A stretch of 64,000 nucleotides of DNA, taken from IMG/VR virus record IMGVR_UViG_3300032050_000122. One strand, written 5' to 3'. Source of the stretch: a virus. Of this stretch, positions 12,967 to 46,539 are shown piece by piece (position 1 is the first letter of the stretch; each line of letters begins with the position of its first letter). The notes under the pieces were generated by a model. The model did no database searches, was not told where the DNA came from, and saw nothing but the letters and a program-made list of their open reading frames with translations. The translations under genes were made by a program, and so were the position numbers.

Positions 12967-13032
12967 GCGGGGGTGGGCTTCGAACCCACAAACAGGTAGC
13001 TAGCCTTCGCTTTGCCAGTTAGCGTACCCCGC
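12967..13032 (-). ncRNA. tRNA-like element lacking an anticodon arm
   Basis: Acceptor GCGGGG/CCCCGC, 3-bp D-arm CGC-UAACUGGCAAA-GCG, T-arm GUGGG-UUCGAAG-CCCAC, but only AAGGCUAGCUACCUGUUU where the anticodon arm belongs; about 66 nt. Confidence 0.4.
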
Positions 13033-17840: not shown

Positions 17841-17923
17841 CCTCCTTCTTAGCGTTCCTTAGCTGGGCTTTCCGTAATCCGTTTAATTCCTATTCCTAAG
17901 TCTCCGATTCGGAATCTGGCAGG

Positions 17924-17946
17924 AATCAAATCGCCGATTTGATTCT
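17924..17946. promoter_or_regulatory. palindrome GAATCAAATC-gcc-GATTTGATTC (operator or parS-like), copy 3
   Basis: Perfect 10-bp inverted repeat; same half-sites as the palindromes at 37035 and 37318. Confidence 0.5.
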
Positions 17947-18208
17947 TGCGAGTTTCGCCTAGTTCACAAAAGGAACAGGGCGCGACCGTTTCGAGATGTC
18001 AACCGAACCGAACCGAATTAGACCATAAAACGGGCGCACTGTGCAAGAGGAATTGAGCAAGGAAAACGCATTTTCTGGGAAATTTTTGCGCAACCGTGCG
18101 CAACCTCTTTCGCGTTAACGTGTTACGTTCATTTCAAAAAGCAACGCGCTGCCCATGGCGCGAAAAATTACCTAAGAAGTTTCCCCTATAGGTAGTTTTC
18201 CAATGTAA

Positions 18209-18667
18209 TCAAATCGGTGGATAACTCCATTTCGATTTGATTCGGTAGTAAGTTTGGATTTGGAAATCGTCTAACGTCGTTAGACGCCCACCACTCGGAT
18301 CCAAAACCTTACCGTTCACCCATGCAATCGCATGACGCTGCCCATTGATTTCGCCAGTCAAGACACCATTGCTACCGTCAAGAATTTTTTCAAACGGTAG
18401 ATGAATCTCAACAGGCCCACCTATGCCACCGGGACTCTCAAGCATGGCAATCGGTTCGTATGTCGTGGTCACGAATCCTAACCTATCCCCAAGGTAGATT
18501 AACTCTTGAGGGTGGAAACCTCTGCGACAGTTTGGTTCAGTAAGATTCGGCCAGCGTATCTCGCTACCATCATGGCCAATGGCTTTGATGACAGACCAAG
18601 TAGGCCAGCCGATAACATAGGACCAAGCTGTTGGCAGACAGGACCAGCGATTGGGTTGGTAGGTCAT
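18209..18667 (-). CDS. hypothetical protein (possible Cys/His peptidase)
   Basis: 152 aa with candidate Cys (CLPTAW) and His (GQRHAIAWVNG) motifs; weak. Confidence 0.35.
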   Translation of the reverse strand: MTYQPNRWSCLPTAWSYVIGWPTWSVIKAIGHDGSEIRWPNLTEPNCRRGFHPQELIYLGDRLGFVTTTYEPIAMLESPGGIGGPVEIHLPFEKILDGSNGVLTGEINGQRHAIAWVNGKVLDPSGGRLTTLDDFQIQTYYRIKSKWSYPPI

Positions 18668-20101: not shown

Positions 20102-20365
20102 TCACTTCTTGATCAGAGCCAGGATGGCATTGATCACGGTTTGCAAATCCAACTTCTGGCCAGAGAACAGACTGAGAACAAGCGGCAAGAGAACCGCCAA
20201 AATCGTCACCAATCCGACGCCCTGAGCTTGTGCCTGCTTGACGGCTTCACTGAGCTTTGTCTCGGCGTCGCGACCGTACTGGTACGCAACGCTCTTCAAA
20301 AGCATTCGCAGCGTTCCCTGTTGATTTGCACCGACGACACCTGCAAGGTGTTGAGCTTCGATCAT
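20102..20365 (-). CDS. small membrane protein
   Basis: 87 aa with a hydrophobic segment (VGLVTILAVLLPLVLSLF). Confidence 0.4.
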   Translation of the reverse strand: MIEAQHLAGVVGANQQGTLRMLLKSVAYQYGRDAETKLSEAVKQAQAQGVGLVTILAVLLPLVLSLFSGQKLDLQTVINAILALIKK

Positions 20366-30953: not shown

Positions 30954-31755
30954 TACGTGGTTCTCCGTTGAAGGAAGGATATTCTTCCTTTAGGGACTTA
31001 AAGAGTTCTTCCGTGCTAATGACACCAGATGTCCAAGCTAACGTCCGTGTAGCAATGTTCGGACCAACAGAGTCCGTAATCAAGTCTTGGACTTCAAACA
31101 TCTCTCGCATGTTGCGAACAACTTTGGCCTTCTGGTCAGAGGTTATGACGCTCTTCTTTGGTGTGATTGCGACATCAAGACTCTCGCCACGGAGCTTCGC
31201 CTGTTTGATCTTGACCACAGTGTCGATCCGGCCTTGCCGAGATGGAATCTCATGCAAGGCTTTGATCTGGTCCTGTGTTAGGAACCCTGCTGCGATTTCC
31301 AATTGAATGTCGGGTTCAAGATCGAGGATCAAGTAACGAGTTGTCACCCAGCCGGTGGACTGACCCACACGCTTGGCAACTTCCCGCAACTGCAATCCTT
31401 TATCCCTGAACCACTTGATTGCCTGAGCTTCCTGGAACATGTTCAAGTCTTTGCGTTCCAGATTCTCGATGAGATTCAAGGAACGAGCTTGATCTTCGGA
31501 CAAGTCCCGAATCGTACCAGGAATGTGGGTCCACTTCAACAGCTTGCAAGAGTAGAGGCGACGGTGACCCACGACCATCATGTACTCGTAGCCGTCCTTG
31601 TTGTAAGGACGAACTACGATAGGTTGCATGAGTCCATTCTCTCGAATGGACTCGACAATCGTTTGCACGTCAATCGGTGCAAGCTTTTGATGACGACAGT
31701 TCCAGTTTTCCTCGTCGGAAAAGATTTTCTTGATTTCAAGCTGTTGTACTTGCAT
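30937..31755 (-). CDS. ParB-like nuclease domain protein
   Basis: 272 aa; N-terminal ParB/Srx fold with VVGHRRL. Confidence 0.6.
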   Translation of the reverse strand: MQVQQLEIKKIFSDEENWNCRHQKLAPIDVQTIVESIRENGLMQPIVVRPYNKDGYEYMMVVGHRRLYSCKLLKWTHIPGTIRDLSEDQARSLNLIENLERKDLNMFQEAQAIKWFRDKGLQLREVAKRVGQSTGWVTTRYLILDLEPDIQLEIAAGFLTQDQIKALHEIPSRQGRIDTVVKIKQAKLRGESLDVAITPKKSVITSDQKAKVVRNMREMFEVQDLITDSVGPNIATRTLAWTSGVISTEELFKSLKEEYPSFNGEPRNVDNG

Positions 31756-32198
31756 TAAGTGCCTCGTTTGTTCAATGCCTGAATCTCTTCACAGAGAATG
31801 TCTCGCAAAGCCTGATCCCTTAGAGGCACAGGATTGAATCTATCGTAGTCCTTAAAAGTATCAAGAAATTCAAATAGTATTTTCGCCTGCTCGATTTTAA
31901 TAATCAAATAAGGTGAAATACGATTCAAGAAATTTCTTAATTCTTCTCGTTGAACATCCCATTGCCAAGATTCTTTTCTATTTCCTCTTAAATCTTTCCT
32001 GGATCGAGGAGTGCCAATTCCAGTAATAACTACCAAGTAGTCCATTAACTTGTAGTTAGTATTGCTGATTGCCACAAATGGTATATAAGGAATTGCATGG
32101 GTTACTTTTTGTGGCTTCTGCCTACAGATTGTGATAGTACCTTCACCATCAATCAATCCAGCAATATAAGCAGCTTGGTTGTCTGTGATGTTTTTCAT
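31755..32198 (-). mobile_element. free-standing LAGLIDADG homing endonuclease
   Basis: 147 aa with AYIAGLIDGEGT. Confidence 0.65.
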
Positions 32199-35015: not shown

Positions 35016-35072
35016 CTGACTTGCTGGGACTCGAACCCAGTGCCCTCGCTAGCGAGGTATCCAATCAAGTCA
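35016..35072 (-). ncRNA. tRNA-like minihelix (acceptor stem, hairpin, T-arm; no D or anticodon arm)
   Basis: Minus strand UGACUUG-auuggaua-CCUCGCuaGCGAGG-gca-CUGGG-UUCGAGU-CCCAG-CAAGUCA-g; perfect 7-bp acceptor and canonical T-arm, 57 nt. Confidence 0.35.
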
Positions 35073-35104: not shown

Positions 35105-35836
35105 CTATCGGTCCCGCTTGGGTTGGCCTTCTTCCTTCTTGACCACTTCGACTTCCGATTCCTTCGGGTTGGCAAACTTCGTCGCCTGCTCGATGATTTC
35201 TTCCATCGACGGAATGCTGAACTGAGTCGAGCACTGGGTGGCGACGGGACCGTGCCACTTGTACTTGTCAGTCTTGATGAGGTTTGCCTTGAGCGTCATC
35301 GGACGCGGGCCTTGGCCAGGATCGCCGTTCGGGAAATCGGCCGTGATGTGGGCCGGATTCGGCGGACGCGGACAGAACGAACGGATGTTCGGGGCTTCAC
35401 GGCGGCTCGTCTTGCTGTTGCAGTAGAACGTGGCGAAGCAACGAGCGGGCAGTTCAGGAACCCAGAACAGGAACTCGATACCGTACATGCAGCCCGAGTC
35501 CTTGATTTCCGACTTCTCTTTGATCGTCAAGAACGTCGTCGATTTCGGATCGTAGCTGCTGAGAATGCCTTCACCGATCTGCATGGCCTTGTAACGCCAC
35601 GCAATCGCGAGGACGTTGAACTCAGCGGTCAGGTCTTCGATCTTGTCCTTCTGACGGACGAGACCGTAGCGGCCGATTCCAATGAGTCCTTCTTTGCACG
35701 CATTGCTGTTCCCGCCATAGAGCGAGATGTACGGGAGGAAAGACCCAGCGGCGACAACATCGCCCCAAGCCTTGTCGTCCTGCGTGTGGACCGACATCGG
35801 AAAATTCTGATTGAGAGTGGAAAGGTCTGTGGACAT
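35105..35836 (-). CDS. hypothetical protein
   Basis: Start moved to MSTDLSTLN (ATG at 35836); 243 aa. Confidence 0.45.
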   Translation of the reverse strand: MSTDLSTLNQNFPMSVHTQDDKAWGDVVAAGSFLPYISLYGGNSNACKEGLIGIGRYGLVRQKDKIEDLTAEFNVLAIAWRYKAMQIGEGILSSYDPKSTTFLTIKEKSEIKDSGCMYGIEFLFWVPELPARCFATFYCNSKTSRREAPNIRSFCPRPPNPAHITADFPNGDPGQGPRPMTLKANLIKTDKYKWHGPVATQCSTQFSIPSMEEIIEQATKFANPKESEVEVVKKEEGQPKRDR

Positions 35837-36003
35837 TGTGTAAAGTCTCTTGAAGAAATACTTTTGGTAAGGTAACAGTATTTTGACCATGAACTGTCAA
35901 TCATGCTTCAGGGTGCATTGGTCGTAAGAATCCTGAAATCCGGCCTGTACTTAATCAGATACAGTATCAACCTGATCAGCCACAGGCCGGGATACTGCTT
36001 CGA

Positions 36004-36978
36004 TTACGCAGCCGCGACAGGAGCATTCAGCTTGGCGACTTCTTGCGCCGCTTCCTGAGCCTTGCGTTGAGCACGTTCGGCCGCAGCCTGAACGCGTTCC
36101 GCTTCGGCCGTCTTCTTGCGTTGTTCGTCCTTGGCCTTGGCGGCTTCGATCGAACGATTGTCAAGATGCACGGCGTACTTGAGGCCGAGAAGGAATCCTT
36201 CTTCGGCGGTCTTGATTCCAGCTTCACGACAAAGCTGGGGTCCGATGACCGGCGTCTCAAGCTCTTGCTTGATTTCGGCGGTCTTGCGGGCACGGGCGAC
36301 GGCGACGAAGCCTTCCGGATTCGCAGCGCGACCTTGACGACGGGCCTTGTCGAGTTCTTGCTTGCGGGCCTGAACGGTTCCGCCGAACTCTTGAGGATTC
36401 ATCGACTGGGCGCGATCAATGAACGCGGCCTGTTCGTCTTCCGGCAGCTTGGCCAGGACGTAGGCGTTGCTCAGGTTGATTTTGCCACCATCGACGAGGG
36501 CACCGACGGCTGCCGTCAGCTTCGTGAGGCCGAGGCGTTCCTTGAGCCACGTGTCGCTCTTGTGCAACTTCTGAGCCATCTGGCTGAAAGTCGTCAGAGG
36601 ATTGCGGCCCATGAGACGCTGGAGAGCCTTGCTGTACTCGACAGGCTTGGTCTCGATCTTGTGGATGTTACCGAGAATCTGCGCTTCCTCGACTTCGGCG
36701 TCGCTCATCGAGCGAACCTGGGCGGGAATCGTTTCCTTGCCGGCGTCGAGCGACCCGGTGTAACGATGCAGACCTTCGATGATTCCGTAGAACAGTTCGC
36801 CAGTGGTGGCGTCCTTCACTTCGCGGACGAGGATGGGATTCAGGATGCCGACATCCTTGATGGAATCAACCAACTGAATGTACTCGACATTCGTGCGGTT
36901 GACACCACGCAACGCAACCGGATTCTCGCGAATCTGGCTGAGCGGGATGTGCTTCAATTGGGTCAACTCATTGGACAT
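36004..36978 (-). CDS. ParB-like partition/DNA-binding protein
   Basis: IPLSQIRENPVALR ... GILNPILVR ... GLHR (ParB N-domain) and an Ala/Glu/Lys-rich C-terminus; start at MSNELTQ with GGAG RBS. Confidence 0.65.
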   Translation of the reverse strand: MSNELTQLKHIPLSQIRENPVALRGVNRTNVEYIQLVDSIKDVGILNPILVREVKDATTGELFYGIIEGLHRYTGSLDAGKETIPAQVRSMSDAEVEEAQILGNIHKIETKPVEYSKALQRLMGRNPLTTFSQMAQKLHKSDTWLKERLGLTKLTAAVGALVDGGKINLSNAYVLAKLPEDEQAAFIDRAQSMNPQEFGGTVQARKQELDKARRQGRAANPEGFVAVARARKTAEIKQELETPVIGPQLCREAGIKTAEEGFLLGLKYAVHLDNRSIEAAKAKDEQRKKTAEAERVQAAAERAQRKAQEAAQEVAKLNAPVAAA

Positions 36979-37034
36979 GGAACAAACTCCAGAGTGTGTT
37001 GCGATTCGTCGATCGCAGGTTGAAAATCGTTCAC

Positions 37035-37055
37035 GAATCAAATCTGATTTGATTC
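37035..37055. promoter_or_regulatory. perfect palindrome GAATCAAATC-t-GATTTGATTC (parS or operator-like), copy 1
   Basis: Located 57 bp upstream of the ParB-like gene start within a 300-bp dyad-symmetric divergent region. Confidence 0.5.
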
Positions 37056-37317
37056 ACGGTGAAGCGGAACAGCCTCATATAGCATGGTCCGAAATGGCGT
37101 TTCTTGTTTCAACAATTCCGGCGGAACTCGCCTATTATAATGGCGCGTTTTGCGCCCTACTAATTTCTTCCTTTCCCTTACTCTCTTATAGCGAAGCTAG
37201 TTAGAACGGTTTGCATTAAAAGAGTAAGGGAAAGAGGGAAAAAATAGTAGGTCAACAATTCTTGAAACAATTTCGCCCGTTTCGGACCATGCTAATTAGA
37301 CCGTTCCGCTATCTTGT

Positions 37318-37338
37318 GAATCTAATCAGATTTGATTC
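37318..37338. promoter_or_regulatory. palindrome GAATCTAATC-a-GATTTGATTC (one mismatch), copy 2
   Basis: Just upstream of the primase-polymerase start; flanks the large inverted repeat centred near 37190. Confidence 0.45.
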
Positions 37339-37355
37339 GTAAATGGAGGATTCCT

Positions 37356-40058
37356 GTGCTGAGAAGCGAAGCAATCAAAAAATTGCTCGTTGCTAAAACC
37401 CATGCTGACCTAGCAGAAATGTATTCCAAAAACATGGAAGTTCAATTCAACGTCGCACAAGATGGTGGCGACCGGATTGAGGAAGATTTCAAAGGGCGAA
37501 CACTCCACAGTTATACCGATGGTATTAACAAGTGGAGCCACTTTCGGATTCCGCGTAATGCGAAGACCGAACCCGAAGATAATGATTGCCCCGTATACGG
37601 GGACATCTATCAACATGCCGAAGGCGTTGGCATGACGGGTTGGGACTGGCAGAATCGCTTGAGCCGATGGGTCGCCTACGATTTCGACGCCATGACAGGT
37701 CACTCGGATAAGCACGAGAAGAAGATGACCGACGAGGAGCTTCAACAACTCCGAGAAGTAGTATCCGCGATTCCGTGGGTCACTATCCGATTATCAACGT
37801 CAGGCAAGGGTATCCACCTGTACGTGATGCTTGACCCAGTACCCACGCAGAATCATACGGAACACGCCGCCCTCGCTCGGGCGATTCTTGGGTTGATGGC
37901 TTCGATTACTGGCTATGATTTCCAATCGAAGGTTGACACCTGCGGCGGTAATATGTGGGTCTGGCATCGTAAGATGACCGGCACCAAAGGATTATCCGTC
38001 GTAAAGCAAGGAACGATTCTTACGGACATTCCACAGAATTGGCGTGATCACATTCGCGTCGTGAGTGGTGCGTCGCGTCGCACGTTGCCTGCATTCGTTA
38101 CGGAGAACAGCGAAGCGAATCCGAATCTTGAAGACATGTTTGAGGAAGTAACTGGCACGAAGACTTTGATTCCGCTCGACAATGAACACAAGCGATTAAT
38201 CGCTTTCATGCACGAGAACAGATGTTGTGCCTGGTGGGATCAAGATCATCACATGCTTGTCACGCACACGGTACACCTACAAGAAGCTTTCAACAAGCTG
38301 AATCTTAAGGGAGTGTTCAAGACAAATGCGAAAGGTGAAAATTACGGCCAAGACCATAACTGCTTCGCTTATCCACTTAGAAGGGGTGCTTGGGCAGTTC
38401 GTCGGTATACACCGGGGGTTGCCGAGGAATCGACGTGGGATCAAGATGGGCAAGGATGGACTCGATGCTACTTCAATCGAGAACTTGATCTCGCAACTGC
38501 GTGTCGCGCATTCAATGCTAATGAAGATGAGAGCGGAGGTTATGTCTTTCGAGAAGCAGAAGTTGCAGCCAAAGCCGCAACTCTCCTTGGAATCGACCTT
38601 GGCATCCCTTCCTGGGCTAATACTCGATCCGCCCTGATTAAAAAGGGCAAGGATGGAAAGTACATTGCTCAGATGGACGCGACCGAACATGATGACCCAC
38701 GAGAGATGACCCAATGGAATCGTAAGGGGAAGAAGTGGTCACGTGTCTTGAGCGGTAAAGCAGAGGTTGCACCCGAGACTGAGGGTCGTAACTATGACGA
38801 AGTTTGCCGGCATATAATCAGTTCGGCCCATTCCAATTTGGGCTGGCTGTTACGTGCAGAGAAAGAATGGATTGACGAACCATTGAATCATGTGTCCATT
38901 GGCTTGAAAGGAATCGTCGGCAAGCAAGCTCTTGTAGATACGATCCTAGGCGAAGCGGCTCTCAAGCCGTGGAAAATCGTGTGCAGACCGTTCGAGCCTG
39001 AGTATCCCAAGATCGCGGGTCGTGTGTGGAATCGGAACGCACCACAATTGCGATTCCGACCCACGAATGCGGACACGCTCTCGTATCCGACATGGCTCAA
39101 GATTCTTACACATTGCGGTAAGAGTCTGAACGAACCAATCAAAAAGAATAACTGGGCCAAGAGTGCAGGTATTCTTACTGGTGCTGATTACTTGAAGGTA
39201 TGGCTCGCATCGCTATTTCAAGAGCCGCTGTGTCCATTACCTTACTTGTTCTTTTATGGGCCACAAGATAGTGGTAAATCTATCTTCCATGAAAGCATCA
39301 GGAATTGTTTGGTTACGTCAGGCGTCGTGCGTGCGGATACAGCCCTGATTAATCAGCAGGGTTTCAATAGTGAATTGGAAAAAGCTGTTCTGTGTGTCGT
39401 TGAAGAAACGAACATGAAGAAGAACAAAGTGGCCTATAATCGAATTAAGGATTGGGTCACTTCCGAAGAGCTTCCTATTCACCCGAAGACAAAGACACCC
39501 TACAGTGTTCTTAACACAACACACTGGGTGCAGACGGCGAATGAGGCAGACGCCGTACCTGTGATGGAAGGTGACACCCGAATCGTTATGGCTTATGTCG
39601 ATGAGCTTTCTCCTACGGATAAAATTCCTAAAAAGATTCTCATGCAAAAGCTGATGAAGGAAGCACCTGACTTCATCGCAGAGTTGTTGCGAATTCAACT
39701 TCCAGATTCTAACGACCGTTTGAACGTGCCAGTGATTGCAACCGAGGAAAAGATCAGGGCACAGCAAGCGAGCCAGAGCTATCTTGATATGTTCTTGGCT
39801 GAGCGTTATTATCATGTTCCTGGCGAAACGATTCTGTTCAAGCAACTCGTTGAAGAGTTCCATGAATGGTTGCCGGGTAATGAACGTGATAACTGGATGA
39901 TGAAAACTATTGGAGAATCGTTGCCGGATAAATACGTTAAGGGACGTAGTACGTCCACTAACCAAGTTATCGTTGGTAACATCTCCAAAAACAAAGATGC
40001 AAAGCCAGGCAAGGCTTTGGTTATTCGCAACGAAAAACTCGTACCATCGGAGACCTAA
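37356..40058 (+). CDS. primase-polymerase (AEP prim-pol) fused to a D5/SF3-like P-loop helicase
   Basis: N-terminal prim-pol motif TIRLSTSGKGIHLYVML; C-terminal Walker A YGPQDSGKS; GTG start with GGAGG RBS (track start 37332 is a TTG). Confidence 0.7.
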   Translation: MLRSEAIKKLLVAKTHADLAEMYSKNMEVQFNVAQDGGDRIEEDFKGRTLHSYTDGINKWSHFRIPRNAKTEPEDNDCPVYGDIYQHAEGVGMTGWDWQNRLSRWVAYDFDAMTGHSDKHEKKMTDEELQQLREVVSAIPWVTIRLSTSGKGIHLYVMLDPVPTQNHTEHAALARAILGLMASITGYDFQSKVDTCGGNMWVWHRKMTGTKGLSVVKQGTILTDIPQNWRDHIRVVSGASRRTLPAFVTENSEANPNLEDMFEEVTGTKTLIPLDNEHKRLIAFMHENRCCAWWDQDHHMLVTHTVHLQEAFNKLNLKGVFKTNAKGENYGQDHNCFAYPLRRGAWAVRRYTPGVAEESTWDQDGQGWTRCYFNRELDLATACRAFNANEDESGGYVFREAEVAAKAATLLGIDLGIPSWANTRSALIKKGKDGKYIAQMDATEHDDPREMTQWNRKGKKWSRVLSGKAEVAPETEGRNYDEVCRHIISSAHSNLGWLLRAEKEWIDEPLNHVSIGLKGIVGKQALVDTILGEAALKPWKIVCRPFEPEYPKIAGRVWNRNAPQLRFRPTNADTLSYPTWLKILTHCGKSLNEPIKKNNWAKSAGILTGADYLKVWLASLFQEPLCPLPYLFFYGPQDSGKSIFHESIRNCLVTSGVVRADTALINQQGFNSELEKAVLCVVEETNMKKNKVAYNRIKDWVTSEELPIHPKTKTPYSVLNTTHWVQTANEADAVPVMEGDTRIVMAYVDELSPTDKIPKKILMQKLMKEAPDFIAELLRIQLPDSNDRLNVPVIATEEKIRAQQASQSYLDMFLAERYYHVPGETILFKQLVEEFHEWLPGNERDNWMMKTIGESLPDKYVKGRSTSTNQVIVGNISKNKDAKPGKALVIRNEKLVPSET

Positions 40059-40256: not shown

Positions 40257-40528
40257 AAGTCATAGCAATTGATGATCCAAGACGTATGGCAATCCGGTTC
40301 TTGAGCCAAGAAATTAGGCTCAAGCATCCGGGTTGCAATATCTTGGTAATCGCAGCAAATCATGTCAAGCTTGAAAGTCTATGCAAAGTAGATTATTGCT
40401 TCTTGACTGAGGCTGAACCCTGTGAGGTTGAAGCTTTGAATGGAAAGTTCTACACTCTTAAGGAGGTAGAAACAATGAGAGAATATCACGCGGAAGTGAT
40501 GGCTCTATTACCGGAGATTCTTGCATGA
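40253..40528 (+). CDS. hypothetical protein
   Basis: 91 aa; 4-nt overlaps. Confidence 0.4.
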   Translation: MKVIAIDDPRRMAIRFLSQEIRLKHPGCNILVIAANHVKLESLCKVDYCFLTEAEPCEVEALNGKFYTLKEVETMREYHAEVMALLPEILA

Positions 40529-41163
40529 AGTTGCTTGATCTCTTTTGTGGTGCTGGTGGTTGCTCAATGGGTTATGCTCGTGCAGGGTTTACTTGTACGG
40601 GTATAGACATCAACCCGCATCCTGATTATCCCTTTGAGTTCTTACTCGACGATGCGTTGTGTATTGACTTTAGGGATTACGATGTTGTTCACGCTTCACC
40701 GCCCTGCCAATTGTTCTCAGTGTCCGCTTCTGGTGACGGAGGCGGACATCCAGATTACGTAGAACCGATTCGAGAACGTCTACGTGCATGGGGTGGGCCT
40801 TATGTAATCGAGAACGTGGTTGGTTGTCCACTGATTGATCCTATCATGCTTTGCGGAACAGAATTTAATCTGCAAGCTAAGTGTGAGGATGGAATCGTTA
40901 GACAACTACGACGGCACCGATTATTTGAGTCGAATGTTGCACTCCAGAACAATGGCGGCTGCAAACATAGTGGACGAGCAATCTCCGTAGTAGGTCATTC
41001 AGGTGGCGTGAAGGCAACTCGTTCTGGAGAGTATCAAGCCACCAAAGCTACTGCTAAGATTGCAATGGGCATTGACTGGATGTTGCACGAGGACATCACT
41101 CAAGCTATACCGCCAGCATACACTGAACACATAGGCCGACAAATCATGGAGTATCTTGCATGA
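40525..41163 (+). CDS. DNA cytosine-5 methyltransferase (short, Dcm-like)
   Basis: Motif I DLFCGAGG, motif IV PPCQ, motif VI ENV; only 212 aa. Confidence 0.7.
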   Translation: MKLLDLFCGAGGCSMGYARAGFTCTGIDINPHPDYPFEFLLDDALCIDFRDYDVVHASPPCQLFSVSASGDGGGHPDYVEPIRERLRAWGGPYVIENVVGCPLIDPIMLCGTEFNLQAKCEDGIVRQLRRHRLFESNVALQNNGGCKHSGRAISVVGHSGGVKATRSGEYQATKATAKIAMGIDWMLHEDITQAIPPAYTEHIGRQIMEYLA

Positions 41164-42032
41164 GCGAAGACCTGTTGCGTCTGTACGCAGACCTCGACGA
41201 CACGGCAGTCACACGTGAGAACTACGTTCGTGCACCATTCAACTATCCTGGCAACAAGAAGGAATCACTCGAACACTTACTCCCCTTACTCCCCACTACG
41301 GATGTTTGGGTTGATGTGTTTGGTGGCACTGGAGTTGTCACTCTTAATCGGCGTCCTTCGAGACTCGAAGTCTTTAATGACCGATGGAGTGGCATTGTTG
41401 CTTTCTATCGTTGCATTCGTGAACCTGCGAAGCTCGACGCACTAATCGACAGACTTCGATTGTGCGTCCACTCGCGTGAAGAGTTCATGTGGTGCAAACA
41501 AACGTGGGAGAATCCCACGGACGACATCGAACGTGCGGCACGTTGGTACTACATGATCCAATGTAGTTTCGCTTGTCGTGGGTTGTTCTTCGGACGTATT
41601 CTTGGACCGGCTACGCCGATTGCCAAGAAGATTTCCGAAAATCTCCCGTTGTTCTATGAAGTGCATCTTCGGATGCGAGATGTCCAAGTTGAAAACCTGG
41701 ACTTTCGAGAATGCTTCAAGGACTACGATTCTTCACAAACAGTCTTTTACCTTGATCCACCCTACTACGAAAACAACATCTACGCTGTCAACTTCACAAA
41801 GCAAGACCATGTGGAAATGCTCGACAAGGTTTTCAAGCTGAAAGGCTTTGTTGCTTTGTCTGGGTATAAGAACGATTTGTACGACAAGTTTCCTTGGGAC
41901 TCAGTACACAAATGGTCACGCCAAGACAAGATGGCTACAATGTCTACGAAAACTGATACCAGTTGCGTAGCTGGGTTGGATATTGAGCGTGAGGAGAAAA
42001 CTGAGTACCTCTGGATAAAGGAATCGTGGTAA
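41160..42032 (+). CDS. DNA N6-adenine methyltransferase (Dam/D12 class)
   Basis: FNYPGNK, DVFGGTG (FxGxG) and DPPY motifs. Confidence 0.7.
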   Translation: MSEDLLRLYADLDDTAVTRENYVRAPFNYPGNKKESLEHLLPLLPTTDVWVDVFGGTGVVTLNRRPSRLEVFNDRWSGIVAFYRCIREPAKLDALIDRLRLCVHSREEFMWCKQTWENPTDDIERAARWYYMIQCSFACRGLFFGRILGPATPIAKKISENLPLFYEVHLRMRDVQVENLDFRECFKDYDSSQTVFYLDPPYYENNIYAVNFTKQDHVEMLDKVFKLKGFVALSGYKNDLYDKFPWDSVHKWSRQDKMATMSTKTDTSCVAGLDIEREEKTEYLWIKESW

Positions 42033-42543: not shown

Positions 42544-43142
42544 TGGCGCACCTTAACGGCCATTTGCTCTGTTCTATCGACGTAGAAACAACTGGCTCCC
42601 GACCCGGCTTTCATGACATCATCCAAATTGCGGTGATTCCATTGGACGGGTTGTTAAAGCCTGACGGGAATCGAATACCCTTCCTGTTGGACATGTGTCC
42701 GAAGCGGCCGCAAAACGCCGAGCCGGATGCAATGGCTTGTAACAAGCGAGAGCTTGCCGAGCTTGTTCTCAGGGGTGTCGACGCCGATCGTGCTGCTGAT
42801 CTTTTTGTTGAATGGGTCGAGAATCAAAAGCTCGGCTTCAACAAACGGATTATGCCGTTAGGTGCAAACTGGCCTTTTGATCGTTCGCACATCATGGAGT
42901 GGCTCGGACCCAAGACATATGAAATGTTGTTCGATTCGCAGTTCCGAGACACGATGACCGTGGCGACGTTCCTCAATGATCTTGCTTCGATTCGTGGGCT
43001 ACCTTACCCGTACCCCAAAGTGAACCTGAGCTACCTCTGCAACATCTTCCGCATCGAACGGACGAAGTCACACGATGCGACTGATGATGCACGGGTCACG
43101 GCCGAAGTGTATGCGAATCTTCTCAAGCAATTCGGTGCTTGA
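42528..43142 (+). CDS. DEDDh 3'-5' exonuclease (DnaQ-like)
   Basis: Exo I CSIDVETTG and Exo III HDATDDARVTAEVY. Confidence 0.65.
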   Translation: MSHKLMAHLNGHLLCSIDVETTGSRPGFHDIIQIAVIPLDGLLKPDGNRIPFLLDMCPKRPQNAEPDAMACNKRELAELVLRGVDADRAADLFVEWVENQKLGFNKRIMPLGANWPFDRSHIMEWLGPKTYEMLFDSQFRDTMTVATFLNDLASIRGLPYPYPKVNLSYLCNIFRIERTKSHDATDDARVTAEVYANLLKQFGA

Positions 43143-43654
43143 TGAGTATTATCAAGCATTTCAAAAATGAGTCTATGTCTGAGTACATAGACAAGGTGGT
43201 GTTAATGGGCGACCAACCCAAGGCACCTTTAGGAGTGATCATGACAGAGCCAATCAAAAACGACAAGTTTGTTGTGAAGGACTCCGGCGAACGGCGACAG
43301 TTTGAAACTGGTGCAGTTCGAGACAAGGCTGTTGGTAAGGGTCGCTTCGACCTGATTCCTGCTTATCCTCTGCATCGGTTGGCCAAGCTTTACGAAGCTG
43401 GTGCAATCAAGTATGCAGATCGAAATTGGGAAAAGGGAATGCCGACTGGTCAGTTCATGGATAGTGCTTTCCGGCACTTGATGAACTACCAAGACGGTGA
43501 TCGTAGTGAAGATCACCTGACGGCTGTCGTTTGGAACATGTTCGGGTTGATTTGGACCCAAGAGATGGTCAAACGCGGCAAGCTCCCGGAATCGTTACTC
43601 ACGCTTCCTGAACCGAAAGAACTCGATGGGACAACGCAAGACGTACCTTTCTAA
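43139..43654 (+). CDS. hypothetical protein
   Basis: 171 aa; conserved-looking RLAKLYEAGAIKYADRNWEKG segment of unknown function. Confidence 0.45.
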   Translation: MMSIIKHFKNESMSEYIDKVVLMGDQPKAPLGVIMTEPIKNDKFVVKDSGERRQFETGAVRDKAVGKGRFDLIPAYPLHRLAKLYEAGAIKYADRNWEKGMPTGQFMDSAFRHLMNYQDGDRSEDHLTAVVWNMFGLIWTQEMVKRGKLPESLLTLPEPKELDGTTQDVPF

Positions 43655-43660
43655 CGTCGG

Positions 43661-43734
43661 GGCGGCATAGCTCAATTGGATAGAGCGTCGGTCTACGAAG
43701 CCGAAGGTTGGGAGTTCGAATCTCTCTGTCGCTA
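43661..43734 (+). tRNA. tRNA-Arg (anticodon ACG)
   Basis: Acceptor GGCGGCA/UGUCGCU, D-arm GCUC-AAUUGGAUA-GAGC, anticodon arm UCGGU-CUACGAA-GCCGA, T-arm GGGAG-UUCGAAU-CUCUC. Confidence 0.75.
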
Positions 43735-43843
43735 ATGTTGATTCGCGTCAGGATCAACAACACGCACTTGGTGCGGTCTCTGTAACTGGGCTTACATAAG
43801 CAGGCTTACCAGAGCTATGCAAGACTCCTAACGGAGTAGTCCG

Positions 43844-44209
43844 ATGGCAATCACAATCACCGAGATCAATATTCGGAAGCCCCAATATCTTGATTCTCGG
43901 CTCCTGGCGTTTGTTACTGTAGTCTTCGATAACTGCTTCGCAATCACGGACCTACGGCTATTGCAGCTTAAAGACGGTCCTTTCCTGGCGATGCCTTCGA
44001 AGAAAGCATCTACACCATGTCAGCATTGCAGACGTAAGAATACGTTTGATTGCCGATACTGCGGTAAGTGCGGCAAACTCTTGGAGTTCAAAGCGGAAGA
44101 GCATTTCGACGTAGCTTTTCCAATCAACAACGAGTTCCGACAATTTATGTTGCAGTCCATTCTTGAGAAATACAAGAATGAAACTGCCAACGAAGCTGGT
44201 GCCAAGTAA
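43844..44209 (+). CDS. SpoVG-like protein with zinc-ribbon insertion
   Basis: ITDLRLLQLKDGPFLAMPSKKAS ... HFDVAFPINNEFRQFM matches SpoVG (NGLFVAMPSKR ... DIAHPIN), interrupted by CQHC...CRYCGKCGK. Confidence 0.55.
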   Translation: MAITITEINIRKPQYLDSRLLAFVTVVFDNCFAITDLRLLQLKDGPFLAMPSKKASTPCQHCRRKNTFDCRYCGKCGKLLEFKAEEHFDVAFPINNEFRQFMLQSILEKYKNETANEAGAK

Positions 44210-44247
44210 GAGGAAATCAGGGCACCCATGACGAATGGAATCGTGAC

Positions 44248-44319
44248 GCTAGCATAGCTCAATGGTAGAGCAGCTGTTTTGTAAGCAGCCGGTTGGGGGT
44301 TCAAGTCCCTCTGCTAGCT
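44248..44319 (+). tRNA. tRNA-Thr (anticodon TGT)
   Basis: Perfect acceptor GCUAGCA/UGCUAGC, D-arm GCUC-AAUGGU-AGAGC, anticodon loop UUUGUAA, T-arm GGGGG-UUCAAGU-CCCUC. Confidence 0.8.
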
Positions 44320-44331
44320 CTGGAGGTATCT

Positions 44332-44751
44332 ATGAGCATACTGTTTTTGGATATTGATGGTGTCTTAAATGGACACCAGAGACATGCCAATGGGTATTGT
44401 GGTATTGATTCCCACTGTATGAGCAACCTGAACCATGTAATCGCACAAACCAAATGTCTGGTTGTAATCAGTTCCGCTTGGCGGTACATGATGCCAGAAG
44501 CCATGACGATTACTGGCTTTGAGTATCTACTCAAGAGTCACGGTCTGAATGGTAGTGTCTACGGTTACACGGAACGTGACGAAGTAATCTCGAAACGCGA
44601 AGATCAGATTCTGGCCTACCCCAAACAAGGCAAGTGGGCCGTGGTTGATGATCTTCCTTTGCAGATCGAAAACTTTGTTCGCACGGATGGAACTATTGGA
44701 ATGCAACGGCATGAAGCCGAACGATTGATCGGCCTGTTAACTCAGGGGTAG
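44332..44751 (+). CDS. small HAD-family phosphatase (Pnk phosphatase-domain-like)
   Basis: Start at MSILFLDIDGVLNG (HAD motif I DxDGV) with GGAGG RBS; about 139 aa; 3' end overlaps tRNA-Val by about 20 nt. Confidence 0.55.
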   Translation: MSILFLDIDGVLNGHQRHANGYCGIDSHCMSNLNHVIAQTKCLVVISSAWRYMMPEAMTITGFEYLLKSHGLNGSVYGYTERDEVISKREDQILAYPKQGKWAVVDDLPLQIENFVRTDGTIGMQRHEAERLIGLLTQG

Positions 44752-44802
44752 AGTGCCAGCTTTACACGCTGGAGGTCGCAGGTTCAAATCCTGCACAGGC
44801 TA
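44731..44802 (+). tRNA. tRNA-Val (anticodon TAC)
   Basis: Acceptor GGCCUGU/ACAGGCU, D-arm ACUC-AGGGGUA-GAGU, anticodon arm CCAGC-UUUACAC-GCUGG, T-arm GCAGG-UUCAAAU-CCUGC. Confidence 0.75.
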
Positions 44803-44912
44803 TTCCCTACGAGCTTTTAAGTGGCACCACTGTTATCGTGGTTCTGGGAAATGAGAAAGGTGGACCCGGCGTATCCGGGGTGAATACCCAGCTAGGGAAC
44901 CAGGAGACAGCT

Positions 44913-45506
44913 ATGTTTAAGTTACTCTTGATCAGTCTAATGTTAGGCGCGACTCCTGCGGAGATCACGCAAAGTACAGTCAAAGTAGATTATCGATTCG
45001 ACGACAACGTCCTTGTCGGGTCTGGAACGATAATCGAAACCACCGACGTGAGCTTTAGTGTACTGACGTGTTCGCATTGCGTCCGACATCATGCACCCAA
45101 AGGAAAGAGCAAAATCATTCTCCAAGATGGTCGAAGCTATCCAGCAACGATTATCAAGATTGACCCGGATCGTGACCTCTGCCTCTTGAAGTCAAACTTC
45201 AAGATAGAGATCAAACCTTCCGAATTTGCTGACGATGATTACAAACCTGGAACAAAGATTCAGGTGTCAGGGTTCTCGGCAGGTAAGTTCTACTCACTAC
45301 GGAATGGGACCGTGACCAATGACTTCGGTTGGAAAGTCATTGACGGAGATAAAGTCGTCTCACAGATTCTGAATGTGTACGCCGTACAAGGTGATTCGGG
45401 TGGTGGCGTGTTTAGAGATGGCAAACAGATAGGTGTTCTATGGGGCGGTACCCCTGGCGGCATCTATGTGAATCGGATGGATACGATTAAGTCGTTCTTG
45501 AAGTAG
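44913..45506 (+). CDS. secreted trypsin-like (S1) serine protease
   Basis: Signal-peptide-like MFKLLLISLMLGA; catalytic triad contexts TCSHC, DLCLL, GDSGGG; GGAG RBS. Confidence 0.65.
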   Translation: MFKLLLISLMLGATPAEITQSTVKVDYRFDDNVLVGSGTIIETTDVSFSVLTCSHCVRHHAPKGKSKIILQDGRSYPATIIKIDPDRDLCLLKSNFKIEIKPSEFADDDYKPGTKIQVSGFSAGKFYSLRNGTVTNDFGWKVIDGDKVVSQILNVYAVQGDSGGGVFRDGKQIGVLWGGTPGGIYVNRMDTIKSFLK

Positions 45507-45512
45507 TGGTTA

Positions 45513-45585
45513 GCGGGTGTAGCTCAATTGGCAGAGCGTCAGTTTTCCAAACTGGATGTTGAGGGTTCGAGTCCCTCTACCCGCA
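45513..45585 (+). tRNA. tRNA-Gly (anticodon TCC)
   Basis: Acceptor GCGGGUG/UACCCGC, D-arm GCUC-AAUUGGC-AGAGC, anticodon arm UCAGU-UUUCCAA-ACUGG, T-arm GAGGG-UUCGAGU-CCCUC. Confidence 0.8.
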
Positions 45586-45740
45586 CTATGCCTGATCGTC
45601 TTACCTTTGGCAAGGCAGCCGGTCAGGACAGCGGTGGATTAGAGCGTGTGGGGCTACACCACCAGGCTGGTTACGGGTAGAGAGGTTGTGCCAACAGCCA
45701 TACTGTAATCGGTCAAGCCCTTCCTTTTAGGAGATTCACA

Positions 45741-46178
45741 ATGATTGCAGGCACTGTCCTTATCTCAAGGAACAATGATGAGGCTCTAAACACAAGTCCC
45801 GGCCATTGGAATCATTGTGCCATCTACGTGGGCGGTGGACGCATTATCCATTCTCTACGTGATCAAGGTGTTGTCGAAACAGTCTATGGCGAATGGCTCG
45901 CTTATGACTGTACTTGGGTTTCCTTGATTCCTATTGACGTGTCGGTCGGATACAAAGCTGCATTCAAAGCGACACAGCTTGTAGGGTTGCCTTATCGAAT
46001 GCTCTCAAGCGTGTTTCTGCGTGCTAGGAATCTTAACCGTGGGATCAATTGTGTTGATGCAGCGGTAAGAGTACCCTACGAGTACGCTTTAGGAAAGAGC
46101 CTCAGTTCGATACATTGGCCTGACCATGTAATCGAATTGACTGGCGTGTTTAAGAAGGGTCCAACAAGTTCTGATTAA
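45741..46178 (+). CDS. hypothetical protein (possible Cys/His hydrolase)
   Basis: 145 aa; GHWNHCAIYVGGGRIIHS. Confidence 0.4.
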   Translation: MIAGTVLISRNNDEALNTSPGHWNHCAIYVGGGRIIHSLRDQGVVETVYGEWLAYDCTWVSLIPIDVSVGYKAAFKATQLVGLPYRMLSSVFLRARNLNRGINCVDAAVRVPYEYALGKSLSSIHWPDHVIELTGVFKKGPTSSD

Positions 46179-46183
46179 TTCTC

Positions 46184-46256
46184 GGGCCGTTAGTTCTAAT
46201 CGGGAAAACGCTGGCCTTGCAAGCCGGAGTCAAGGGTTCGAATCCCTTACGGTCCA
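46184..46256 (+). tRNA. tRNA-Ala (anticodon TGC)
   Basis: Acceptor GGGCCGU/ACGGUCC with the G3-U70 Ala identity pair, anticodon arm CUGGC-CUUGCAA-GCCGG, T-arm AAGGG-UUCGAAU-CCCUU. Confidence 0.75.
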
Positions 46257-46257
46257 A

Positions 46258-46330
46258 TCCCTGGTAGCACAACTGGTAGTGCAACTCGCTGTTAACGAGT
46301 AGATTGTAGGTTCGAATCCTACCTAGGGAG
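46258..46330 (+). tRNA. tRNA-Asn (anticodon GTT)
   Basis: D-arm GCAC-AACUGGUA-GUGC, anticodon arm ACUCG-CUGUUAA-CGAGU, T-arm GUAGG-UUCGAAU-CCUAC. Confidence 0.75.
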
Positions 46331-46418
46331 CTTGACAGGTGAATTGTGGCATTAAGGGAAACGGCGGAACAGGCTTATGCCTAAGTACCATATGGTTCTC
46401 TCCACATACCTGTCACCT

Positions 46419-46490
46419 CGGTGCGTTGCTGGAAGGTCATAGCGTGTGGTTTGGGACCACAAGACGAGAGTTCGATTCTCTCCGTGCCGA
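46419..46490 (+). tRNA. tRNA-Pro (anticodon TGG)
   Basis: Acceptor CGGUGCG/CGUGCCG (two GU pairs), 3-bp D-stem, anticodon arm UGUGG-UUUGGGA-CCACA, T-arm GAGAG-UUCGAUU-CUCUC. Confidence 0.65.
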
Positions 46491-46503
46491 TTAAAACGAA
46501 AAA

Positions 46504-46536
46504 GCCCGCAATGGTAAAACCATTGCGGGCTTTTTT
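46504..46536. terminator. bidirectional rho-independent terminator
   Basis: AAAAA-GCCCGCAATGG-uaaaa-CCATTGCGGGC-TTTTTT; ends the plus-strand tRNA block and the convergent minus-strand structural operon. Confidence 0.8.
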
Positions 46537-46539
46537 CGT

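What the first reader, a model, noticed from the sequence alone, without database searches (positions are those of the whole stretch)
37030..37345. About 300-bp dyad-symmetric divergent region with parS/operator-like palindromes next to a ParB gene
Between the ParB-like gene (minus strand, start 36978) and the primase-polymerase gene (plus strand, start 37356), the sequence is largely a long imperfect inverted repeat: GCGGAACAG...CATGGTCCGAAA versus TTTCGGACCATG...CCGTTCCGC, and CCTTTCCCTTACTCTCTT versus AAGAGTAAGGGAAAGAGG. It is flanked by the perfect palindrome GAATCAAATC-T-GATTTGATTC (37035-37055) and a one-mismatch copy (37318-37338). A third copy sits at 17924-17946 upstream of the sigma factor gene. 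This looks like a ParB or repressor binding site plus a possible replication origin at the head of the replication module.
Basis: seen in the sequence. Interest (0 to 1): 0.6.

Follow-up and report, generated by a model that had tools for sequence, protein, structure and literature searches.

The report
Mirror-symmetric phage replication control region
Between a ParB-like gene and a primase-helicase gene of an uncultured phage lies a roughly 310-bp mirror-image DNA region capped at both ends by a protein-binding box that is conserved across the whole phage family. It most likely switches the two replication operons on and off, and it may also be where replication starts.

Summary
Window 37030-37343 is a 314-nt imperfect inverted repeat (fold z = -13 to -15) capped by the palindromes at 37035-55 and 37318-38.

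Comparison with about 40 related viral contigs (primase 40-67% identical) changes what matters:
- The ParB-like gene, the intergenic region and the primase are syntenic almost everywhere.
- The 9-mer AATCAAATC (tandem AATCA pentamers) sits at both ends of that region. 78 of 79 exact copies in 412 kb lie inside it.
- About 24 of 33 distinct regions are long dyads whose arm sequences are lineage-specific yet mirror each other, usually around a non-symmetric AT-rich centre.

Arm mismatches show no G:U excess and Rfam finds nothing, so a one-strand RNA hairpin is unlikely. The boxes also bracket other promoter regions: the sigma-factor gene in this phage and the second ParB gene in relative L069. 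There is no ParA, no fixed half-site spacing, and ParB1 has lost two of the three GERRxR arginines.

Best reading (about 0.5): a mirror-duplicated divergent promoter/operator region controlled by a conserved phage DNA-binding protein, probably one of the two ParB-likes. A palindromic bidirectional origin remains possible (about 0.25) but unproven. This is a new variant of known kinds and of moderate interest.

The parts
37035..37055 (.). Left A-box palindrome GAATCAAATC-T-GATTTGATTC, lying 57-77 nt upstream of the ParB1 start codon
   Evidence: The core 9-mer is conserved at the ParB-proximal end of the intergenic region in relatives.
37318..37338 (.). Right A-box palindrome GAATCTAATC-A-GATTTGATTC, lying 18-38 nt upstream of the primase GTG
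   Evidence: It is conserved in L001 and at the primase-proximal end in relatives.
37030..37078 (.). Outer left arm of the long dyad; pairs with 37295-37343
   Evidence: repeat I1: 49 nt, 80% complementary.
37295..37343 (.). Outer right arm of the long dyad
   Evidence: repeat I1.
37080..37117 (.). Middle left arm. It includes CATGGTCCGAAA and TTGTTTCAACAATT. On the minus strand it gives the candidate outward promoter TTGAAA (37112-37107) -17- GACCAT (37089-37084).
   Evidence: repeat I2. The promoter assignment is weak, because hits of this score are common in the window.
37257..37294 (.). Middle right arm. On the plus strand it gives the candidate outward promoter TTGAAA (37262-37267) -17- GACCAT (37285-37290).
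   Evidence: repeat I2. The 32 nt at 37241-37272 are invariant between the window and L001.
37118..37155 (+). Insert present only in the left arm. It contains TATAATGG (TATAAT at 37136-37141) and two mini-hairpins. It is a candidate rightward promoter that would give the primase mRNA a roughly 210-nt structured leader.
   Evidence: The TATAATGG element is conserved in L001 and L009, and similar elements occur in L034 and L043.
37156..37251 (.). Inner dyad. Its left side is pyrimidine-rich (CCTACTAATTTCTTCCTTTCCCTTACTCTCTT) and its right side purine-rich, around a 14-nt centre at 37196-37209.
   Evidence: repeats I3 and I4.
36004..36978 (-). ParB1, a ParB-like protein with an HTH domain and a degenerate arginine patch (DGLHRY). 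It is transcribed divergently from the primase gene.
   Evidence: It is syntenic in 40 of 47 relatives.
37356..40058 (+). Prim-pol (AEP) fused to an SF3/D5-type helicase (DUF5906), 900 aa
30937..31755 (-). ParB2, a second and more canonical ParB-like protein (GHRR, ENLERKDL). It is an alternative candidate for the protein that binds the A-boxes.
   Evidence: It is syntenic in relatives. In L069 its promoter is bracketed by A-boxes.
17923..17945 (.). A-box pair GAATCAAATC-GCC-GATTTGATTC, in the leader region upstream of the sigma-factor gene (17193-17840, minus strand)
   Evidence: It is exactly conserved in L049. The sigma-factor assignment rests.
18206..18243 (.). A-box pair TAATCAAATC-N18-GATTTGATTC, at the upstream edge of the same sigma-gene control region
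   Evidence: It is exactly conserved in L049 and L118.

Best explanation
The region is the shared control region of two divergent replication operons. Leftward runs ParB1, orf261, SNF2, ParB2 and PolA. Rightward runs the primase-helicase, the methyltransferases and an exonuclease.

The region is built as two mirror-image copies of one regulatory cassette around an AT-rich centre. Each cassette ends, next to its gene, in one or more 'A-boxes' with the core AATCAAATC (tandem AATCA pentamers). In this phage the boxes are arranged as a 21-bp palindrome.

A conserved phage DNA-binding protein, most probably ParB1 or ParB2, binds these boxes. The boxes bracket the promoters and lie in the transcribed leaders or at the promoter edges. 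Occupancy would therefore shut down, or time, both operons together. The same protein would also act on the sigma-factor gene, which carries the same boxes.

The two arms stay alike because the same set of factors must act on both promoters. Occasional sequence exchange between the inverted copies probably helps.

Shown here: the dyad, its conservation as a property rather than as a sequence, the box conservation and its restriction to this region, and the bracketing of other promoters.

Inferred: which protein binds, repression as the outcome, and the positions of the promoters.
For: - The dyad is highly non-random and unique in the window.
- ParB1, the intergenic region and the primase are syntenic in 40 of 47 loci.
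- 78 of 79 exact A-box 9-mers in 412 kb of relatives lie in the intergenic region. 29 of 37 loci have them, and 20 have them in both halves.
- Long dyads occur in about 24 of 33 distinct intergenic regions.
- With the A-boxes masked, arm-to-arm scores within a genome are 41-111. Scores against arms of non-close relatives are at background, about 21.
- 25 of 87 arm position pairs covary among four related phages, a level reached by 0 of 500 shuffles. Slid controls give 4-8.
- Arm mismatches are 307 transversion-type, 70 G:T and 90 A:C. This is the random 4:1:1 ratio, which points to symmetry at the double-stranded DNA level and not to an RNA hairpin on one strand.
- The symmetric arms are separated by a non-symmetric AT-rich centre, median 60 nt and 75% AT.
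- Several relatives have matching outward-facing promoter candidates in both arms that place the boxes in the leaders: L022/L019 TAGACA-17-TAATAT, L036 TTGCAA-N-AATAAT, L042 TTTACT-17-TATTAT.
- The boxes bracket other promoter regions. One is the sigma gene upstream region, conserved in L049 despite indels. The other is a strong TTGAAA-17-TATACT promoter of ParB2 in L069.
- In L030/L039 the dyad stays at the point of divergence although small ORFs separate it from the primase gene.
- The ParB-likes are the only recognisable sequence-specific HTH proteins in the module.
- The ParB1 profile matches Spo0J, Noc and KorB over the N-domain plus HTH (E = 1.6e-23).
- KorB is a precedent for a ParB-family operator-binding repressor (PMC11790492).
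Against: - No promoter in the window's own region is statistically convincing. The symmetric TTGAAA-17-GACCAT hits score 9.9 bits, and 63 hits that good occur in the window, mostly in coding sequence. The host and its promoter consensus are unknown.
- The binding protein is not identified. The variable residues of the ParB1 recognition helix do not track box changes cleanly.
- Half-site spacing of 0-29 nt is unlike a rigid ParB dimer site.
- Continuous arm similarity over 100-180 bp is more than a few operator sites need.
- Between the two closest genomes, substitutions are mostly one-sided. Neither strong per-site selection nor rapid homogenisation is therefore visible.
- DnaA-box clusters at the primase-proximal position in L034 and L035 fit an origin at least as well.
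Confidence: 0.5

Rival explanations
1. The region is a palindromic bidirectional replication origin, possibly in addition to holding promoters. The A-box pentamer arrays on both sides would be loading sites where the neighbouring prim-pol/SF3 helicase, or a ParB-like recruiter, assembles in opposite orientations. The AT-rich centre would be the unwinding element. Divergent transcription would supply negative supercoiling. This resembles HSV oriL/oriS, the SV40 core origin, and the SaPI and P4 origins.
For: - The layout of inverted repeat, AT-rich centre and inverted repeat is conserved.
- The region sits at the head of the replication module, next to an SF3-type helicase-primase.
- The boxes are tandem and inverted pentamers (AATCA repeated). 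From my own knowledge, this resembles the GAGGC pentamers of SV40 site II and the short repeats bound by other SF3 initiators.
- Relatives L034 and L035 carry 4-5 perfect DnaA boxes (TTATCCACA) within about 90 bp at the primase-proximal position.
- The symmetry is conserved although long palindromes are costly to maintain.
Against: - The boxes also bracket the promoters of the sigma-factor gene and of ParB2 (L069), where an origin is not expected.
- GC skew changes sign at both ends of the 9-kb plus-strand gene block. It therefore tracks transcription, and the residual replication term is about 0.005-0.01.
- The helicase-primase has no recognisable origin-binding domain after the helicase.
- The centre of the window's own dyad is only 60-64% AT.
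- No functional data exist.
Confidence: 0.25
2. The region is transcribed and acts as a long hairpin RNA. This could be a structured leader, an RNase III target or a non-coding RNA. One version starts at the TATAAT promoter at 37136, which would put the 96-nt inner hairpin at the 5' end of the primase mRNA.
For: - The RNA fold energy is -156 kcal/mol with z = -15.
- A TATAATGG element conserved in L001 and L009 lies just upstream of the inner hairpin.
- The right A-box abuts the primase RBS.
Against: - Arm mismatches show no G:U enrichment on either strand (70 G:T, 90 A:C and 307 other, the random ratio).
- No Rfam family matches. There are only sub-threshold generic hairpin hits.
- In most relatives the centre is a 40-130-nt non-pairing stretch.
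- No terminator follows the hairpin.
- If both strands were transcribed and folded, the wobble test would be blind, so this reading is not fully excluded.
Confidence: 0.1
3. The dyad has no function of its own. On this view only the boxes and promoters matter. The symmetry would be a passive by-product of an ancestral inverted duplication, kept alike by gene conversion between inverted repeats.
For: - Inverted repeats are known to undergo concerted evolution (my own knowledge).
- Arm identity is only about 80-90% and is patchy.
- Some relatives (L009, L014, L024, L029, L034, L035) have weak or short dyads.
- Substitutions between the window and L001 are mostly one-sided.
Against: - The symmetry persists across lineages whose primases are only 40-55% identical and whose arm sequences are unalignable.
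- Long palindromes are prone to deletion, so persistence without selection is unlikely.
Confidence: 0.1
4. The region is a mobile or recombination element. The candidates are a MITE, an invertible promoter switch (inverton) or a protelomerase telomere-resolution site.
For: - The region has terminal inverted repeats.
- It contains an asymmetric promoter-like insert (37118-37155) that would change target if the segment between the outer arms inverted.
Against: - It is single-copy in the window.
- Its position is conserved in all relatives.
- The insert has the same orientation in the window, L001, L009, L034 and L043.
- No recombinase or protelomerase was found among the scanned ORFs.
- The dyad centre is not a perfect palindrome.
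Confidence: 0.03

Closest known systems
KorB and its OB operators of IncP plasmid RK2 (ParB-family global repressor)
   Same: - A protein with a ParB N-domain and HTH is encoded in the element.
- Short palindromic sites lie in or near several promoter regions, including those of replication genes and divergent promoters.
- No dedicated centromere role is required.
- The ParB1 family profile matches KorB structures 8qa8 and 1r71.
- KorB's mechanism is described in PMC11790492.
   Different: - KorB keeps the GERRxR CTP-binding motif, acts with KorA or TrbA, and has the partner IncC (a ParA).
- Here ParB1 has GLHR(F/Y)x, and no ParA or KorA-like protein was found.
- OB is a 13-bp palindrome with fixed geometry. 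The A-boxes are 9-10-nt units with spacers of 0-29 nt and either relative orientation.
- RK2 has no long mirror-symmetric control region.
Herpes simplex virus oriL/oriS and the SV40 core origin (palindromic origins inside divergent promoter regions). This comparison rests on my own knowledge and was not checked in a paper here.
   Same: - A long dyad with an AT-rich centre lies between divergently transcribed replication genes.
- Short initiator-binding repeats sit in inverted orientation on both arms.
- A virus-encoded helicase lies next to or acts on the site.
- The same sites also regulate the flanking promoters.
   Different: - Origin activity is not shown here.
- The arms are imperfect and are usually separated by about 60 nt of non-symmetric sequence.
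- The boxes also occur at non-origin promoters.
- The candidate binding protein is a ParB-like HTH protein, not an OBP or a large-T-antigen origin-binding domain.
Dispersed centromere or operator palindromes of linear plasmid-prophage N15 (SopB sites). This comparison rests on my own knowledge.
   Same: - Several copies of a palindrome bound by a ParB-family protein are scattered in regulatory regions of a phage genome, near replication and control genes.
   Different: - N15 has SopA (a ParA), a protelomerase and a plasmid-prophage lifestyle. None of these is evident here.
- N15 has no long dyad.
Iteron-flanked AT-rich origins next to primase/helicase genes (SaPI ori, phage P4 ori/crr). This comparison rests on my own knowledge.
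   Same: - Repeated short boxes lie on both sides of an AT-rich stretch, adjacent to a primase-helicase gene.
   Different: - Those iterons are bound by the Rep or alpha protein itself, and the regions are not long dyads.
- The binding protein here is unknown.

Membership tests
ParABS partition system (parS centromere) | A ParB protein with a ParB N-terminal domain and an HTH domain is encoded next to the site | tested here: met
   ParB1 matches ParB_N at 51.6 bits and HTH_ParB at 31 bits, both above the gathering thresholds. The family profile matches Spo0J, Noc and ParB structures at E = 1e-23 to 1e-17.
ParABS partition system (parS centromere) | A cognate ParA ATPase gene, and a ParA-interaction motif LG(R/K)GL in ParB | tested here: not met
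   No ParA, CbiA or AAA_31 hit was found in the about 45 window ORFs scanned. The conserved neighbour orf261 has no Walker A motif. Neither ParB N-terminus has an LG(R/K)GL motif. About 48 kb of the roughly 112-kb genome was not seen.
ParABS partition system (parS centromere) | CTP-binding GERRxR arginine patch (Box II) and ENLQRxDL (Box III) | tested here: not met
   In ParB1, GERRYRA is replaced by DGLHR(F/Y)(S/T)A, which keeps 1 of 3 arginines, and Box III reads ANIHKxET. ParB2 keeps GHRR and ENLERKDL, so this feature is partly met for ParB2.
ParABS partition system (parS centromere) | A roughly 16-bp palindromic site with fixed half-site geometry | tested here: not met
   The boxes are 9-10-nt units. 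Gaps between paired boxes range from 0 to 29 nt, and both convergent and divergent arrangements occur.
KorB-type ParB-family operator regulon | The same palindromic box occurs in or near several promoter regions of the element | tested here: met
   The boxes lie at the ParB1/primase intergenic region, at the sigma-gene upstream region, and around the ParB2 promoter in L069.
KorB-type ParB-family operator regulon | The ParB-family protein binds the box and represses transcription | not testable with these tools
   This needs EMSA or ChIP and reporter assays. The comparison of helix-turn-helix sequence with box sequence was inconclusive.
Palindromic viral origin (HSV oriL / SV40 core type) | A long dyad with an AT-rich centre lies between divergent replication genes, with inverted short initiator boxes on both arms | tested here: met
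   This is an anatomical match only.
Palindromic viral origin (HSV oriL / SV40 core type) | Replication initiates at the site | not testable with these tools
   GC skew gives no signal independent of transcription. DnaA-box clusters in L034 and L035 are only a hint.
Protelomerase telomere-resolution site (telRL) | A perfect central palindrome plus a protelomerase gene | tested here: not met
   The centre at 37196-37209 is non-palindromic and the arms are 78-82% complementary. No protelomerase or recombinase was found among the scanned ORFs.
Known structured RNA family (Rfam) | A match to a covariance model at the gathering score, with wobble-tolerant covariation | tested here: not met
   Only sub-threshold hits to generic miRNA-precursor hairpins were found. 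G:U pairs are not enriched among arm mismatches.
MITE or inverton | Multiple copies or alternative orientations, and an associated recombinase | tested here: not met
   The region is single-copy. Its position and the orientation of its insert are fixed in relatives. No recombinase was found.

The most novel reading that the evidence does not exclude
The conserved mirror-symmetric region is the lytic origin of an uncultured family of roughly 110-kb siphophages. On this reading, arrays of AATCA pentamers on both sides load the prim-pol/SF3 helicase in opposite orientations, as in the SV40 and HSV origins. A CTP-motif-degenerate ParB-like protein gates this loading and the two divergent replication operons through the same boxes. 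The arm-to-arm symmetry is selected because both strands must present the same loading platform. That would be a bacterial-virus counterpart of eukaryotic viral palindromic origins, with a ParB-fold protein as the origin gatekeeper.
Probability: 0.2. Interest if true: 0.75.

Novelty: new variant of a known kind. Interest (0 to 1): 0.55.

Why it matters
The functions of phage ParB-like proteins that lack a ParA partner are largely unknown. A recent survey of the ParB-CTPase fold leaves most phage members unassigned (PMC12704722).

This case offers a conserved and easily testable pairing:
- a 9-10-bp box with more than 1000-fold positional enrichment;
- two candidate binding proteins;
- three kinds of target promoter: the two replication operons, a sigma-factor gene and a ParB gene.

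It also shows a 200-400-bp dyad symmetry that is conserved as a property while its sequence turns over. Such conservation is usually taken as evidence for RNA structure, but here the mismatch spectrum argues for symmetry at the DNA level.

If the region is also the origin, it would give an entry point to replication initiation by prim-pol/SF3 helicases in an uncultured phage family that has no relatives among isolated phages.

Tried and rejected
- **Equal 283-bp spacing.** Both box pairs in the window are 283 bp apart, which looked like phasing or looping. I rejected this because L001 has 307 bp, L049 has 337 bp, and relatives range from 203 to 452 bp with no helical phase.
- **ECF-type promoter.** GGAAC-N15-TCCGA occurs in both arms, but it is not conserved in the near-identical L001.
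- **Small leader ORFs.** ORFs start at the ATG in GGACCATGCTA in both arms. They have no RBS, and the only other 12-mer match (5127) is inside a coding region.
- **Covariation between the ParB1 recognition helix and box variants.** This was suggestive: loci with WISGRL or WINGRL lack the box, and L034/L035 have CCATCACATC instead. It was not clean, because KD versus RD and KA versus QA go both ways.
- **Sigma-70 position weight matrix scan to place promoters.** Hits in the window's region are not above the background of coding sequence.
- **Shared phage-specific promoter motif.** None was found among the 34 intergenic gaps.
- **Other arm blocks elsewhere in the window.** None was found apart from the A-boxes.
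- **Closest cultured phages.** The primase, PolA and DNA searches found nothing useful, and ParB1 gave only generic hits at about 30% identity.
- **Host identification.** The genome-contig scan gave a single contig binned in a Methanomassiliicoccales MAG, which is probably mis-binned.
- **Box-pair scan of IMG/VR.** Only 11 of 119 stretches belonged to relatives, and most were probably chance matches. The scan did, however, reveal the ParB2 promoter bracket in L069.
- **Literature search.** No paper describing this arrangement was found.
- **Structure prediction.** I did not run it, because it would not identify the protein that binds the boxes.

Full report
**1.

Window 37030-37343 is a 314-nt imperfect inverted repeat made of three consecutive arm pairs:
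- 37030-78 with 37295-343
- 37080-117 with 37257-294
- 37156-195 with 37210-251

The arms are 78-82% complementary. As a single strand the region folds far better than shuffled sequence: z = -13.4 with DNA parameters and -15.3 with RNA parameters. A self-reverse-complement alignment gives z = 28. It is the only long dyad in the 64-kb window.

The terminal palindromes are at 37035-55 (perfect) and 37318-38 (one half-site mismatch). No such 21-mer is expected by chance.

- The 'third copy' is at 17923-45 and has a 3-nt spacer.
- A fourth pair at 18206-43 has an 18-nt spacer.
- The left arm holds an asymmetric 38-nt insert (37118-55) that contains TATAAT.

One is a ParB-like protein with ParB_N and HTH_ParB domains. 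The other is a 900-aa protein with AEP primase motifs, a Walker A motif and DUF5906.

**2. Comparative evidence**

The phage has no cultured relatives by DNA, primase or PolA searches. IMG/VR, however, holds 47 loci with a primase 39-99% identical. In 40 of them a ParB1 homologue is divergently adjacent. The wider module is also syntenic: PolA, ParB2, SNF2, orf261 and ParB1 on one side, and the primase, orf64 and a D12 methyltransferase on the other.

Two features of the intergenic region are conserved.

*The A-box.*
- The 9-mer AATCAAATC occurs in 29 of 37 distinct regions, and in 20 of them in both halves.
- 78 of 79 exact copies in 412 kb lie inside the intergenic region. That is 3.7 copies per kb inside against 0.003 per kb outside.
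- The core is (D)AATCAAATC(A), which is tandem AATCA pentamers.
- The arrangement is loose. Gaps between paired boxes range from 0 to 29 nt. Pairs are convergent on the ParB side and mostly divergent on the primase side. The distance between the left and right boxes is 203-452 bp without helical phasing.
- The equal 283-bp spacing of the window's two box pairs is therefore coincidence. L001 has 307 bp and L049 has 337 bp.
- Lineages without this box carry other terminal inverted motifs at the same places, for example CCATCACATC/GATGTGATGG and GAATCTCTAGAGATTC.

*The dyad.*
- About 24 of 33 distinct intergenic regions contain a dyad spanning 150-435 bp. L069 has one as well.
- The sequences differ between lineages. 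With the boxes masked, arm-to-arm scores within a genome are 41-111. Scores against the arms of any non-close relative sit at background, about 21.
- In four related phages, 25 of 87 arm position pairs changed on both sides while staying complementary. This level was reached by 0 of 500 shuffles, and slid controls gave 4-8.

**3. What kind of symmetry this is**

- Among 467 mismatched arm positions across 26 regions, 307 are transversion-type, 70 are G:T and 90 are A:C. That is the random 4:1:1 ratio. A hairpin selected in RNA from one strand should be enriched in G:U, and Rfam finds nothing above threshold.
- The arms are usually separated by a non-symmetric centre, median 60 nt and about 70% AT. 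On average the centre is the most AT-rich point, 75% against 50% in the flanks. That layout is poor for cruciform extrusion. It fits two mirrored cassettes around a spacer.
- Between the window and its 90%-identical relative L001, substitutions are mostly one-sided. Homogenisation of the arms, if it occurs, is therefore episodic.
- In L030 and L039 the dyad stays next to ParB1 at the point of divergence although small ORFs separate it from the primase gene.

**4. What the boxes do**

The boxes bracket promoter regions beyond this locus.
- In the window, and exactly conserved in L049 despite surrounding indels, two box pairs flank the control region of a sigma-factor gene.
- In relative L069, two inverted boxes 69 nt apart enclose a TTGAAA-17-TATACT promoter directly upstream of ParB2. 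Its position-weight-matrix score of 15.6 is higher than anything in the window.
- Several relatives show matching outward-facing promoter candidates in both arms that put the boxes in the leaders.

In the window itself, the promoter candidates (TTGAAA-17-GACCAT in both arms, and TATAAT at 37136) are not above background. Promoter positions here remain inferred.

**5. The candidate binding proteins**

- The ParB1 family profile matches Spo0J, Noc and KorB over the N-domain and HTH (E = 1.6e-23). However, the GERRxR patch reads GLHR(F/Y)x and Box III reads ANIHKxET.
- ParB2 is more canonical, with GHRR and ENLERKDL.
- No ParA, LG(R/K)GL motif, protelomerase, recombinase or Cro/CI-like protein was found among the scanned ORFs.
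- Helix-versus-box covariation was only suggestive.

These findings argue against a partition centromere. They favour a KorB-like operator system (PMC11790492) whose nucleotide dependence is unknown. CTP-independent and otherwise atypical ParB-fold proteins are known (PMC12260392, PMC12704722).

**6. The origin question**

Points in favour:
- The layout of inverted repeat, AT-rich centre and inverted repeat.
- The neighbouring SF3 helicase-primase.
- The pentamer nature of the boxes.
- Clusters of 4-5 perfect DnaA boxes at the primase-proximal position in L034 and L035.

Points against:
- The boxes also occur at other promoters.
- GC skew simply follows gene orientation at both ends of the 9-kb plus-strand block.

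The two roles are not mutually exclusive. From my own knowledge, the SV40 and HSV origins also sit in divergent promoter regions.

**7. Verdict**

The feature is real, conserved and functional.
- Best explanation (0.5): a mirror-duplicated divergent promoter/operator region for the two replication operons, bracketed by boxes for a conserved phage regulator that is probably ParB-like.
- Main rival (0.25): a palindromic bidirectional origin.
- Lesser rivals: a long hairpin RNA (0.1), a symmetry with no function of its own (0.1), and a mobile or recombination site (0.03).

It is a new variant of known kinds. Interest is 0.55.

Noticed in passing
window 35017-35072 (minus strand): A tRNA-like mini-element lies in the 164-nt gap between orf261 and orf164. 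It has an acceptor-like stem (GACTTG/CAAGTC), a T-arm (CTGGG-TTCGAGT-CCCAG) and one extra hairpin. ARAGORN does not call it, and the only Rfam hit is a weak one to mascRNA (25 bits against a gathering score of 42.5). T-loop-like GGGTTCGA 8-mers also occur in the gaps at 7955-8409, 11366-11519 and 12616-13307.
   Followed up: partly
window 5617-7170 (minus strand): This ORF encodes a TROVE/Ro60-like protein with a vWA domain. Ro60 orthologues usually work with Y-RNA-like partners that contain tRNA-like modules. The tRNA-like elements above could be such partners.
   Followed up: no
L034:2657-2751 and L035:2352-2431: Two relatives carry 4-5 perfect DnaA boxes (TTATCCACA) within about 90 bp just upstream of the primase gene, at the position where other relatives have A-boxes. 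Their ParB-proximal palindrome is a variant, CCATCACATC..GATGTGATGG.
   Followed up: partly
L069:3352-3460: In this relative, two inverted A-boxes 69 nt apart bracket a near-consensus promoter (TTGAAA-17-TATACT) directly upstream of the second ParB gene.
   Followed up: yes
window 43139-43654 (plus strand): This ORF has the N-terminal domain of a MazZ-like dATP/dGTP diphosphohydrolase (PF18909, 71 bits). It lies near C5 and N6 DNA methyltransferase genes (40525-42032). This may point to modified DNA bases. No PurZ was looked for.
   Followed up: no
window 20362-21525, 44293-44751 and 43661-46491: The window holds an RNA-repair and translation toolkit: an RNA ligase, a HAD domain of the 'Swiss army knife' RNA repair proteins, and 12 tRNA genes, 7 of which are clustered at 43.6-46.5 kb.
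   Followed up: no
window 31755-32198 (minus strand): A LAGLIDADG homing endonuclease ORF is inserted between the SNF2 helicase gene and ParB2, with start and stop overlapping its neighbours. The primase matches in L026 and L050 span about 3.7 kb, against about 2.7 kb in the other loci, which suggests an intein or intron insertion.
   Followed up: no
window 46492-46542: A 24-bp GC-rich inverted repeat is flanked by A-runs and T-runs at the point where the plus-strand gene block meets the minus-strand structural genes. It is probably a bidirectional terminator.
   Followed up: no
window 43844-44209 (plus strand): This ORF encodes a SpoVG homologue with a zinc-ribbon insertion.
   Followed up: no
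L050 (CALKWP010000106.1): The only hit in the species-representative genomes is a 30-kb contig binned in an 'uncultured Methanomassiliicoccales archaeon' MAG. It is probably a mis-binned phage contig, so the host remains unknown.
   Followed up: no
window 35105-35890 (minus strand): orf261, directly downstream of ParB1, is conserved in 38 related loci but has no Pfam or PHROG match and no Walker motif.
   Followed up: partly
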